From assembly GCF_050320075.1 (NCBI RefSeq), contig NZ_CP190019.1: DNA of 64,000 bases. One strand, 5' to 3'. Positions 15,001 to 18,000 of the stretch are shown here, piece after piece (position 1 is the stretch's first letter; each line of letters opens with the position of its first letter). Source of the DNA: Escherichia coli (GTDB taxonomy: Bacteria; Pseudomonadota; Gammaproteobacteria; Enterobacterales; Enterobacteriaceae). Made by a program: the position numbers.

Positions 15001-18000
15001 AAGGCCAAAGACAAGTTCGCTGGCACCTGCTGTATCGGTCATAATTTCGGTTGGATTCAGCCCGGTCTCCTGTTCCAGAAGACCTTCCAGCACAAAGATA
15101 GAGTCCCTCAGCGTCCCCGGTATAACGATGCCATGAAAGCCGGAATACTGATCGGACACAAAGTTGTACCAGGTGATCCCTCTGTTATTACCAAAGTATT
15201 TGCGGTTCGGTCCGGCATTGATTGTTCTGACTGGCGTAACAAAGCGCATTCCATCTGCAGATGCCACTTCTCCTCCACCCCATATCTGTGCCAGTGGCAG
15301 CGTTGCCTAAAAATCAACCAGTCTGGCATTAGCGCTGGTGATAGTTTCAGCCCGCAGATAGTTCGCTTTTGTCCAGTTCAGCCGGTGTCGGGTCAGTGCA
15401 GGAACATTTGATCTGATCAGTGGTTCCAGACCGATATTGCAGGCTTCAGCCATCAGCACGGCGCTGATGCTGACGGGCAGATCATCAACTCTGGCACTGG
15501 CTTCACTAGCATGGAAAAACTCATCAGCAAATCCGGTATGGGCGTTAATTTCGAGCAGCAACTCCGTTAAATCCACCGGAGGGAGTAGATCACTGATCAT
15601 TTTGCTCAGTCGTTTCGGCACTGTTGCAAATAGTCGGTGGTGATAAACTTATCATCCCCTTTTGCTGATGGAGCTGCACATGAACCCATTCAAAGGCCGG
15701 CATTTTCAGCGTGACATCATTCTGTGGGCCGTACGCTGGTACTGCAAATACGGCATCAGTTACCGTGAGCTGCAGGAGATGCTGGCTGAACGCGGAGTGA
15801 ATGTCGATCACTCCACGATTTACCGCTGGGTTCAGCGTTATGCGCCTGAAATGGAAAAACGGCTGCGCTGGTACTGGCGTAACCCTTCCGATCTTTGCCC
15901 GTGGCACATGGATGAAACCTACGTGAAGGTCAATGGCCGCTGGGCGTATCTGTACCGGGCCGTCGACAGCCGGGGCCGCACTGTCGATTTTTATCTCTCC
16001 TCCCGTCGTAACAGCAAAGCTGCATACCGGTTTCTGGGTAAAATCCTCAACAACGTGAAGAAGTGGCAGATCCCACGATCCTCAACACGGATAAAGCGCC
16101 CGCCTATGGTCGCGCGCTTGCTCTGCTCAAACGCGAAGGCCGGTGCCCGTCTGACGTTGAACACCGACAGATTAAGTACCGGAACAACGTGATTGAATGC
16201 GATCATGGCAAACTGAAACGGATAATCAACGCCACGCTGGGATTTAAATCCATGAAGACGGCTTACGCCACCATCAAAGGTATTGAGGTGATGCGTGCAC
16301 TACGCAAAGGCCAGGCCTCAGCATTTTATTATGGTGATCCCCTGGGCGAAATGCGCCTGGTAAGCAGAGTTTTTGAAATGTAAGGCCTTTGAATAAGACA
16401 AAAGGCTGCCTCATCGCTAACTTTGCAACAGTGCCGCCCCAGCAGCATCTCCAGCTGTGAACGCTGTTCGGCTGACGGTATCAGTGCCAGTTTGTTCCAC
16501 AGGCGCAACGTCGCCTTTTCCCTTACCTCTGAAATCAACCGGGTCAGCGTAGTGGCTCCGGGGAGAATAATAGTCTATCCCGGCATTGCCAGTCGGGGAT
16601 ATTAAAAAGAGTATAGGTTTTTATTGCGATAAACTAGGTTTCACTTTGGTTCACCATGAAGATGGATTCGCAGTTCTAATGTGTAATGAGGTTCGGATTC
16701 ATCTATGGGAGGCAAGTGATGAAGGCTGGCGCTCTCGTAGTAATGATTCACCGGTTTGTACAGGTGCGGAGTCGTTTATTGCTGGTACTGCTAGTTGCCG
16801 CATTGAAGTAGAGGGAATTGATGAATTATATCAACATATTAAGCCTTTGGGCATTTTGCACCCCAATACATCATTAAAAGATCAGTGGTGGGATGAACGA
16901 GACTTTGCAGTAATTGATCCCGACAACAATTTGATTAGCTTTTTTCAACAAATAAAAAGCTAAAATCTATTATTAATCTGTTCAGCAATCGGGCGCGATT
17001 GCTGAATAAAAGATACGAGAGACCTCTCTTGTATCTTTTTTATTTTGAGTGGTTTTGTCCGTTACACTAGAAAACCGAAAGACAATAAAAATTTTATTCT
17101 TGCTGAGTCTGGCTTTCGGTAAGCTAGACAAAACGGACAAAATAAAAATCTAAATATGCTTGAACAACTTGTAACTTAAATTCATAACTGTATTTTGCCA
17201 TAAAAAATGACCTCCCATAAGTTAGATTTTTGGTCTAACTTATGGGGGTCAGTTCATTCTACACTTGGGCTGCATGTTTTGATTAATTATCTAATATCTC
17301 CGGATCTCCTGTAAAGGAATATAAAACTGCCTGCATGTTTTTCAAATAAAATACGGTGAATTTCCCATCATCAGCGCTATACCAATCTCTCAAAGGCGGA
17401 TTTGCTTCAAGCATTGCTTCCCTTGCTTCCACGGTATCATCAATTACGGCTTCGCCGGTGAGCCGAATCCATTTTCCTTTTGCCATACCTGAGACTTCCA
17501 CCTTTGAATTTGCCAATAACTGCTGATAAACTTTTTTCTGATTGGTTGTACCAAGATAGACCTTGCCATTCCTCTCCATGGCTGCATTAAACGGTCTGAC
17601 CCTTGGCTGGTCTCCTTCAACGGTTGCAAAATAAAAAGTTTTTGCTTCATTTAAAAAATCAACAACTTGACTCATCCTTTTTTACCTCCATAAATAAATT
17701 TTTCTTTACTTTTCTTTGACCTAAATTCCACGTGCATTTTTTATTAGCTTAAAAGAACACTATTTCACGAAGAATTTAAACTGATACTCCCACATTGTAA
17801 CATTATTTACCACCACCTTTCAATCTTTTTCAATAAATTATTGATTGCAACTTTTGAGTAAAGATACTTATTAAACCCTGCAAGTTATCCACAGAGCAAC
17901 ACTCGATTTTCAAGATGATATCTTTATTATACCAGACATTTTTCATACACTTCCTTGGGCACTGTTGCAAAGTTAGCGATGAGGCAGCCTTTTGTCTTAT

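What the first reader, a model, noticed from the sequence alone, without database searches (positions are those of the whole stretch)
15617..16435. Two IS26 copies share an identical inactivating frameshift; at least three IS26 sequence types coexist
Copies A (15617-16435) and D (29437-30255) are 819 bp and both read cccacgatcctcaac where intact copies read cccacgattcatcaac, which splits the transposase after ...KKWQIPR. They also carry Asn at the KRII(G/N)ATLGF position, as do intact copies G and H, whereas B, C, E, F and I have Gly. The shared lesion implies the defective copy was duplicated, either mobilised in trans or copied by homologous recombination.
Basis: seen in the sequence. Interest (0 to 1): 0.4.

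Follow-up and report, generated by a model that had tools for sequence, protein, structure and literature searches.

The report
Dead IS26 allele copied between sites
Two of the nine IS26 insertion sequences in this resistance plasmid carry the same transposase-killing mutation, a dead allele found in about 150 other sequenced plasmids, and the second copy most likely got the mutation by DNA exchange between IS26 copies rather than by jumping; this is a useful natural marker but an ordinary kind of feature.

Summary
The window holds nine IS26 copies of exactly three sequence types. Five are standard IS26 (Gly184), two are IS26-v1 (G184N), and two (A 15617-16435, D 29437-30255) are 819-bp IS26-v1 derivatives. 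A and D share T464C plus deletion of A466. This stops Tnp26 after R134 and removes catalytic residues D142 and E177.

The lesion is not an assembly artefact. The exact lesion sequence occurs in 149 PLSDB plasmids and 84 complete E. coli RefSeq records, where PGAP already marks such copies as frameshifted pseudogenes.

Copy A sits in the allele's main context, upstream of bleO beside the oqxAB module. Between about 82 and 163 of the 390 plasmids with that junction carry the dead allele there.

Copy D sits at a junction (truncated sul1 / IS26 / truncated IS6100) that holds an intact IS26 in about 23 other plasmids. Only 7 records have the dead allele there. The lesion therefore entered a pre-existing IS26 by homologous exchange: gene conversion or paired crossovers, driven by RecA or by Tnp26 branch migration. 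Trans-mobilisation is not supported.

Caveat: IS26 alleles at fixed sites are sometimes unreliable in hybrid assemblies. Interest is modest.

The parts
15617..16435 (+). IS26 copy A: an 819-bp defective derivative of IS26-v1 (T464C, deletion of A466) with both 14-bp terminal inverted repeats intact
   Evidence: Copy A plus 300 bp of flank on each side is 100% identical in at least 60 plasmids.
16080..16082 (+). Lesion in copy A: C at IS position 464 (T in all other copies), with A466 missing between 16081 and 16082
   Evidence: Sequence read; alignment columns 464 and 466.
15680..16192 (+). Truncated tnp26 reading frame of copy A: 134 authentic residues plus 36 out-of-frame residues (170 aa). 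It keeps the N-terminal DNA-binding region and D82 and lacks D142 and E177.
   Evidence: translation. Pfam DDE_Tnp_IS240 matches only profile positions 4-56 of 139, against 4-139 for the intact protein. DDE residues are from PMC4196232.
16063..16383 (+). Remnant C-terminal reading frame of copy A (106 aa from a GTG), in the original Tnp26 frame and including the Asn184 codon
   Evidence: ORF list; frame 2 translation.
29437..30255 (+). IS26 copy D: 819 bp, identical to copy A, lying between truncated sul1 and truncated IS6100
   Evidence: The same junctions hold an intact IS26 in about 23 other plasmids and the dead allele in 7.
29900..29902 (+). Lesion in copy D, the same T464C plus deletion of A466
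29500..30012 (+). Truncated tnp26 reading frame of copy D (170 aa)
   Evidence: (ORF 29482..30012, which uses an upstream TTG) and identity with copy A.
45216..46035 (-). IS26 copy G: intact IS26-v1 (Asn184), the parental type of the dead allele. It differs from A and D only by the lesion.
57216..58035 (+). IS26 copy H: intact IS26-v1 (Asn184)
17958..18777 (-). IS26 copy B: standard IS26 (Gly184), left boundary of the oqxAB unit
   Evidence: The protein type equals WP_001067855.1 in relatives.
23984..24803 (-). IS26 copy C: standard IS26 (Gly184), right boundary of the oqxAB unit
34383..35202 (-). IS26 copy E: standard IS26 (Gly184), beside mph(A)
36243..37062 (-). IS26 copy F: standard IS26 (Gly184), beside aph(3')-Ia
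62819..63638 (+). IS26 copy I: standard IS26 (Gly184)

Best explanation
A and D are two copies of one naturally occurring dead allele of IS26-v1 (T464C plus deletion of A466). The mutation arose once, on the Asn184 background, and now circulates among resistance plasmids of Enterobacterales.

The allele cannot make active transposase. The protein ends after R134 plus a 36-residue nonsense tail and lacks two of the three catalytic residues. Both terminal repeats and 819 bp of homology to every other IS26 are retained, so it stays a substrate for recombination.

Its main home is site A, upstream of bleO next to the oqxAB unit.

Site D (truncated sul1 / IS26 / truncated IS6100) was created by an active IS26. 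It later acquired the lesion by homologous exchange with a dead copy. That exchange was either gene conversion or two crossovers on opposite sides of position 464-466, for example between sister plasmids. The catalyst was either RecA or the Tnp26 targeted conservative reaction, in which branch migration of a Holliday junction runs through the element.

What is shown: allele identity, loss of catalytic residues, wide recurrence of the allele, and the same D junctions carrying intact IS26 elsewhere. What is inferred: the direction (A first, D later) and the enzyme responsible.
For: 1. A and D are identical and differ from intact v1 copies G and H only by the lesion.

2. The truncation removes most of the DDE domain. 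D82, D142 and E177 are each required for activity (PMC4196232).

3. The exact 91-bp lesion region is 100% identical in 149 PLSDB plasmids and 84 E. coli RefSeq records. PGAP annotates both copies of p13P484A-2 as frameshifted.

4. Site A with 300-bp flanks is 100% identical in at least 60 plasmids of several genera and replicon types. About 82-163 of the 390 plasmids with the IS26-bleO junction carry the lesion there.

5. Site D with both junctions carries the lesion in 7 records. It carries intact IS26 (v1, v1+C379A or standard) in about 23. The IS26/IS6100 junction alone carries intact IS26 in many further plasmids of Klebsiella, Citrobacter and Shigella.

6. Plasmids pTBH7P2 and pKW21 have the dead allele at A and intact v1 at the IS26/IS6100 junction, the presumed earlier state.

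7. The dead allele is seen with only one of A's two flanks: A-left with blaTEM, another left flank with A-right, and A-left with F-right. Crossovers within this copy therefore do happen.

8. A frameshifted IS26 still takes part in the targeted conservative reaction with an intact partner, about 30-fold less often (PMC4196232). That reaction is proposed to involve branch migration, with gene conversion seen in the laboratory (PMC7885326).

9. Within this plasmid lineage both (A dead, D dead) and (A intact, D intact) plasmids exist. These are the two products expected from a reciprocal double crossover between sister plasmids.
Against: 1. IS26 alleles at fixed sites are not always trustworthy in public assemblies. 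Five records derived from one donor strain (the pHB42 series) show dead, dead, v1, v1 and a mosaic allele at site D. They also show variable 1-bp indels in mrx and mphR. Some 'intact at D' or 'intact at A' calls may therefore be polishing artefacts.

2. The direction of transfer is inferred from prevalence, not from a dated phylogeny.

3. No conversion tract can be delimited, because the donor and the presumed recipient (v1) differ only at the lesion.

4. The source record of the window is not in the collections searched, so its sequencing method is unknown.
Confidence: 0.7

Rival explanations
1. The dead copy was mobilised in trans. Tnp26 made by one of the seven intact copies acted on the intact ends of copy A and made a new replicative (copy-in) insertion at site D.
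For: Both terminal repeats of A and D are intact. Seven intact IS26 copies are on the same molecule.
Against: 1. Site D has exactly the junctions that hold an intact IS26 in about 23 other plasmids. A new insertion would not land at the same two base positions.

2. There is no 8-bp target duplication at D, and none between A and D flanks.

3. A frameshifted IS26 alone gave no detectable cointegrates, and Tnp26 is described as acting preferentially in cis (PMC4196232; PMC7885326).
Confidence: 0.04
2. Assembly or polishing artefact in this window. Only one copy truly carries the lesion, and the other received it through mis-assignment of reads among the nine near-identical repeats.
For: Alleles at sites B, C and D differ among nearly identical plasmids. 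They even differ among transconjugants of one donor, and mosaic alleles appear. This is the signature expected of repeat-consensus noise. The colinear relative pEC21-2 shows intact copies at both A and D.
Against: 1. The dead allele is the minority type (2 of 9 copies), so consensus polishing should erase it rather than spread it.

2. The lesion at D is reported in 7 records, which appear to come from several independent submissions (different strains, hosts and countries): p13P484A-2, p14406-FII, pHB42-2 and pHB42-F1, pDJH_137urine_Plas1, CP142584 and CP142542. In three of these the plasmid region fetched lacks site A altogether.

3. The lesion is a substitution plus a deletion outside any homopolymer.
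Confidence: 0.1
3. The frameshift is functional rather than a null. Either the ribosome shifts frame to restore full-length Tnp26, or the truncated 170-aa protein is kept by selection as a regulator that binds IS26 ends and damps transposition.
For: The truncated product keeps the whole N-terminal region. Residues M1-P56 bind the terminal repeat on their own, although weakly (PMC8477213). The allele persists in 149 plasmids.
Against: 1. No slippery heptamer is present around the lesion (CCACGATCCTCAACA), so recoding is unlikely.

2. Persistence is explained by hitch-hiking with the bleO-oqxAB resistance module.

3. No experiment bears on an inhibitory role.
Confidence: 0.06
4. Independent, parallel mutation of two IS26-v1 copies at A and D.
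For: None beyond both copies being on the v1 background.
Against: The lesion has two changes, it is identical in both copies, and the same allele is present in 149 other plasmids.
Confidence: 0.01

Closest known systems
IS26-v1 (IS26 variant encoding Tnp26 G184N; Pong et al. 2019, as cited in PMC11137137 and PMC9019673)
   Same: A and D carry the three nucleotide differences from standard IS26 that mark copies G and H here and WP_001067858.1 in relatives: A459, A613 and A614 (the last two giving Asn184). The terminal repeats are the same, and the sequence is 99.76% identical over the whole element.
   Different: A and D additionally have T464C and lack A466. They are 819 bp and cannot encode the 234-aa transposase. 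IS26-v1 is reported as more active than IS26, whereas this derivative is dead in cis.
Laboratory frameshift mutants IS26-FS-L and IS26-FS-R (Harmer, Moran and Hall 2014, PMC4196232)
   Same: Both have a frameshift in tnp26 with intact ends. Such elements give no copy-in cointegrates on their own but still react with an intact IS26 in the targeted conservative mode at roughly 30-fold lower frequency. This is the expected behaviour of A and D.
   Different: The laboratory mutants are a 4-bp duplication at bases 114-117 and a 13-bp deletion at 624-636. The natural allele is a 1-bp deletion plus a substitution at 464-466. Its behaviour has not been measured.
Pseudo-compound transposons and translocatable units bounded by directly oriented IS26
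   Same: A and D are in direct orientation and bracket 13 kb holding bleO, oqxAB and a class 1 integron (dfrA12-aadA2).
   Different: Both bounding copies are dead. Tnp26-dependent excision of this unit from its own ends is therefore not expected, and only RecA-dependent recombination or transposase from other copies could release it.
Gene conversion among dispersed repeats (for example concerted evolution of rRNA operons or IS copies)
   Same: A sequence variant spreads between copies at fixed genomic positions without change of flanks.
   Different: Here the outcome could equally come from paired reciprocal crossovers between plasmid copies followed by segregation, or from a transposase-initiated Holliday junction (PMC7885326). 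The sequence cannot tell these apart.

Membership tests
IS26 (IS6/IS26 family insertion sequence) | 14-bp perfect terminal inverted repeats GGCACTGTTGCAAA at both ends | tested here: met
   All nine copies, including A and D, have the repeat at both ends.
IS26 (IS6/IS26 family insertion sequence) | 820-bp element, near-identical in sequence to IS26 | tested here: met
   A and D are 819 bp and 99.76% identical to intact copies G and H. They are 99.39% identical to the standard type.
IS26 (IS6/IS26 family insertion sequence) | Single intact tnp26 gene encoding a 234-aa DDE transposase (D82, D142, E177) | tested here: not met
   The frame is broken after R134, so D142 and E177 are lost. The Pfam DDE_Tnp_IS240 match is cut to positions 4-56 of 139 (residues from PMC4196232). 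A and D are therefore defective derivatives, members by descent only.
IS26 (IS6/IS26 family insertion sequence) | 8-bp target-site duplication after simple copy-in insertion | tested here: not met
   None of the nine copies has matching 8-bp flanks, directly or in reverse complement. This is usual for IS26 inside rearranged resistance regions (also noted in PMC9019673).
IS26-v1 (G184N variant) | Asn instead of Gly at Tnp26 position 184 (AA instead of GG at IS positions 613-614), plus a silent A at position 459 | tested here: met
   A, D, G and H carry A459, A613 and A614. In A and D the codon lies downstream of the frameshift and is not translated in frame.
Programmed translational frameshift in a transposase gene (as in IS1 or the IS3 family) | Slippery heptamer at the frame junction, conserved in all functional copies | tested here: not met
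   The sequence at the lesion (CCACGATCCTCAACA) has no X XXY YYZ motif. The seven other copies have a single uninterrupted frame.
IS26 pseudo-compound transposon (A...D as a unit) | Two directly oriented IS26 copies bracketing a passenger segment, with at least one able to supply Tnp26 in cis | tested here: inconclusive
   Direct orientation and passenger genes are present. Both bounding copies are dead. Whether transposase from the other copies can act on them is not testable here.

The most novel reading that the evidence does not exclude
The dead allele is not just a hitch-hiker. Its 170-aa product keeps the complete end-binding N-terminal region of Tnp26 and occupies IS26 ends or poisons transposase dimers. 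This would damp IS26 activity and stabilise resistance regions crowded with IS26. Under that reading, selection helped the allele persist in about 150 plasmids and spread to a second site. It would be a natural transposition inhibitor for the most important IS of Gram-negative resistance plasmids, comparable to IS1 InsA or the Tn5 inhibitor protein.
Probability: 0.06. Interest if true: 0.6.

Novelty: new member of a known kind. Interest (0 to 1): 0.3.

Why it matters
IS26 drives most rearrangement of resistance regions in Enterobacterales. A dead but end-intact allele acts as a natural genetic marker inside an otherwise invariant repeat.

Its distribution shows that sequence moves between IS26 copies at fixed sites. 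One junction is occupied by dead, v1, v1+C379A and standard alleles in different plasmids, and the dead allele appears with only one of its original flanks. That is field evidence for the inter-copy exchange so far mentioned only as an unpublished laboratory observation (PMC7885326).

There are two practical points. First, structures bounded by two dead copies, here 13 kb with bleO, oqxAB and a class 1 integron, should not be assumed to be self-mobilising. Second, IS26 allele calls in hybrid assemblies should be treated with caution.

Tried and rejected
1. Exact-pattern scan of the lesion in one genome per species (GTDB representatives) gave 0 hits. The allele is confined to accessory plasmids and absent from the reference genomes sampled there.

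2. The source record of the window was sought in PLSDB and in complete E. coli genomes and was not found. The closest records are p14406-FII, which has an extra 5.4-kb tet(A) segment, and pEC21-2, which is colinear but has different IS26 alleles.

3. Literature searches used these terms: IS26 + frameshift + Tnp26; IS26 + 819 bp; IS26-v1/G184N/IS15DI; oqxAB + bleO + IS26 + pseudogene; defective, inactive or mutated IS26; and plasmid names. No paper describing this allele was found. A different 1-bp deletion in an IS26 copy is mentioned in PMC9019673. The JAC 2021 guide to IS26 variants is not held.

4. The pHB42 donor and transconjugant series first looked like real-time allele conversion at site D. 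I rejected it as evidence because the records also differ by scattered 1-bp indels, and one has the same odd mosaic in two copies.

5. S30 plasmid A was checked as a possible (A dead, D intact) colinear ancestor. It lacks site A.

6. A target-site duplication search across all 18 flanks found none.

7. Programmed frameshifting was rejected on inspection, since there is no slippery site.

Full report
**What is in the sequence**

Copy A (15617-16435) matches nine places in the window at 99.4-100% identity. Alignment of the nine copies in IS orientation shows only five variable columns.
- Positions 459, 613 and 614 split the copies into two groups. B, C, E, F and I have G, G, G and encode Gly184. 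A, D, G and H have A, A, A and encode Asn184.
- Positions 464 and 466 (T to C, and loss of A) are unique to A and D.
- A and D are identical over all 819 bp.

All nine copies keep the 14-bp terminal inverted repeat at both ends, and none has an 8-bp target-site duplication.

In A and D, translation from the tnp26 start (IS position 64) follows Tnp26 to R134 and then runs 36 out-of-frame codons to a stop. Pfam finds only positions 4-56 of the 139-position DDE_Tnp_IS240 model in this product, against 4-139 in the intact protein. The catalytic residues are D82, D142 and E177, and each is required (PMC4196232), so the product is catalytically dead.

The 'intact' reading cccacgattcatcaac applies to G and H only, because the Gly-type copies have a silent G at position 459. 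The lesion is a substitution plus a deletion.

In annotated relatives the Gly type corresponds to WP_001067855.1 and the Asn type to WP_001067858.1. The Asn type is the G184N variant called IS26-v1 in the literature (PMC11137137; PMC9019673). A and D are thus a dead derivative of IS26-v1.

**The lesion is real and widespread**

A 91-bp query centred on the lesion is matched at 100% in 149 PLSDB plasmids. It is matched in 84 of the 5,821 IS26-bearing records of complete E. coli genomes.

Hosts include E. coli, Salmonella, Klebsiella pneumoniae and K. michiganensis, E. fergusonii, Proteus terrae and Photobacterium damselae. Sources are mostly farm animals, food and people in East Asia.

RefSeq annotation already flags both copies in plasmid p13P484A-2 as 'IS26 family transposase, frameshifted'. 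The allele is absent from one-genome-per-species representatives. I found no paper that describes it.

**Context of the window**

The window is part of the multiresistance region of an IncFII/FIB (F18:A-:B1, colicin-type) plasmid. Its closest relatives are p14406-FII, p13P484A-2 and pEC21-2 (PMC10295773).

Using the annotation of relatives, the order around the two copies is:
1. Tn3-family transposase remnants
2. copy A
3. bleO and a pyridoxamine-phosphate oxidase family gene
4. copy B
5. oqxAB and an Rrf2-family regulator gene
6. copy C
7. intI1, dfrA12, aadA2, qacEdelta1 and truncated sul1
8. copy D
9. truncated IS6100, then mphR, mrx and mph(A)
10. copy E, aph(3')-Ia, copy F

**Site A is the allele's main home**

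Copy A with 300 bp on each side is 100% identical in at least 60 plasmids. The list saturated at that number.

I then used a synthetic query joining a 41-bp lesion segment to the IS26 right end and the bleO-side flank, with evenly spaced rows down the ranking. It shows 390 plasmids with this junction. The lesion is present in the plasmids at ranks 1 and about 82, and absent from about rank 163 onward. Roughly 82-163 of the 390 therefore carry the dead allele at A. That is most of the 149 carriers.

Site A is thus itself polymorphic for dead and intact alleles.

**Site D was an ordinary IS26 site first**

Copy D with 300-bp flanks finds 30 records that share both junctions.
- Seven carry the 819-bp allele.
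- About 23 carry an intact 820-bp IS26.
- Direct typing of fetched loci gives v1 (S30 plasmid A, pYZLc1-3, pHB42-F3 and F4), v1 with C379A (pEC21-2), and, by identity, the standard type (CP101252 group).
- The right junction alone (IS26 / truncated IS6100, part of the widespread mph(A) module) carries intact IS26 in many more plasmids of Klebsiella, Citrobacter and Shigella.
- Plasmids pTBH7P2 and pKW21 have the dead allele at A and intact v1 at that right junction.

A fresh transposition of the dead copy could not reproduce two pre-existing junctions to the base, and D has no target duplication. The lesion must therefore have entered an IS26 already sitting there.

**How the lesion moved**

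Keeping both flanks while changing the interior requires non-reciprocal gene conversion or two crossovers on opposite sides of position 464-466.

The dead allele is found with only one of A's flanks in three plasmids:
- A-left with blaTEM in pD72-IncP;
- a different left flank with A-right in pNCYU-25-82-1;
- A-left with F-right in pNCYU-25-82-6.

Single crossovers inside this copy therefore do occur.

A pair of reciprocal crossovers between sister plasmids that start as (A dead, D intact) yields one (dead, dead) and one (intact, intact) product. Both states exist in this lineage. The window, p14406-FII and p13P484A-2 are (dead, dead), while pEC21-2 and pYZLc1-3 are (intact, intact).

The enzyme cannot be read from the sequence. 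RecA-dependent recombination on 820 bp of homology is sufficient. Alternatively, the Tnp26 targeted conservative reaction still works when one partner is frameshifted, at about 30-fold lower frequency (PMC4196232). That reaction is proposed to proceed by a single strand transfer followed by Holliday-junction branch migration, with gene conversion observed in unpublished experiments (PMC7885326).

**Caveat on assemblies**

Alleles at sites B and C also differ among near-identical plasmids:

| Plasmid | Site B | Site C |
|---|---|---|
| window | Gly type | Gly type |
| p14406-FII | v1 | v1 |
| p13P484A-2 | Gly type | v1 |

Mosaic alleles also occur: 459A with 613-614GG, and C379A on both backgrounds.

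Some of this may be real exchange. However, the five pHB42 records, a donor and four transconjugants from one study, show dead, dead, v1, v1 and a mosaic at site D. They also show varying 1-bp indels in mrx and mphR. That pattern looks like consensus noise.

Because the dead allele is a minority type, such noise should erase it rather than create it. 'Dead at D' calls are therefore more reliable than 'intact' calls. The conclusion does not rest on any single record. It rests on seven dead-at-D records, on the very wide occurrence of intact IS26 at the D-right junction, and on the logic that an active element made those junctions.

**Consequences and rating**

A and D are in direct orientation and bracket 13 kb of resistance genes. 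As both are dead, this unit should not release itself through its own transposase. RecA, or transposase from other copies, would be needed.

The finding is a correct and tidy observation of a previously undescribed but already annotated dead allele of a very well known element. Its value is as a natural marker of exchange between IS26 copies, so interest is modest.

A more novel reading remains open but unsupported: that the truncated, end-binding protein acts as an inhibitor under selection. The N-terminal fragment M1-P56 binds the terminal repeat only weakly (PMC8477213), and hitch-hiking with the bleO-oqxAB module explains the allele's spread.

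Noticed in passing
window 17958-18777 and 23984-24803 (copies B and C); L001 23423-24242 and 29449-30268; L002 8822-9641 and 14848-15667: The IS26 copies flanking oqxAB sit at identical junctions in three near-identical plasmids but carry different alleles. The window has Gly/Gly, p14406-FII has v1/v1, and p13P484A-2 has Gly/v1. This is either inter-copy exchange or assembly noise.
   Followed up: partly
L003, L004, L005, L019, L020 (pHB42-2 and transconjugant plasmids F1, F3, F4, F5), locus position about 20301-21120: One donor plasmid and four transconjugant fusion plasmids show dead, dead, v1, v1 and a 459A/613-614GG mosaic at the same IS26 site. 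They also have variable 1-bp indels splitting mrx or mphR. This is most likely sequencing or polishing noise, but real-time conversion is not excluded.
   Followed up: partly
L007 5838-6657 and 17301-18120; L008 22248-23067: Mosaic IS26 alleles occur in relatives. C379A appears on both the v1 and the standard background in pEC21-2. A copy in pYZLc1-3 has v1 at position 459 but standard bases at 613-614.
   Followed up: no
window 13529-14281; L001 13530-14282 and 18994-19746: This 753-bp stretch is present once in the window but twice in p14406-FII, as a direct repeat flanking a 5.4-kb tet(A)-tetR segment. The window looks like the deletion form, or the empty site, of that segment.
   Followed up: partly
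window 16436-16572: The 137 bp immediately right of copy A is a Tn2/Tn3 transposase-gene fragment present in thousands of plasmids. The left flank is also a Tn3-family transposase remnant. Copy A therefore sits inside Tn2 debris with no target duplication.
   Followed up: partly
window 15617-63638, all nine IS26 copies: No copy has an 8-bp target-site duplication, and no flank of one copy matches a flank of another, directly or in reverse complement. Every copy has therefore taken part in at least one later rearrangement.
   Followed up: yes
window 6790-10611 (- strand): A 1,273-aa ORF is annotated in relatives as 'anti-phage transmembrane ATPase'. It has no NCBIfam match at E<=1e-10. It lies in the plasmid backbone next to colicin M/B/V immunity genes.
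   Followed up: no
window 47440-49107 (+ strand): A group II intron reverse transcriptase/maturase (TIGR04416, E=3.6e-115) lies between IS26 copies G and H.
   Followed up: no
window 58433-59188 (- strand) and 59358-60218 (- strand): An RmtB 16S rRNA methyltransferase gene lies next to a 286-aa ORF. By position and size that ORF corresponds to blaTEM-1 in relatives. Both lie between IS26 copies H and I.
   Followed up: no
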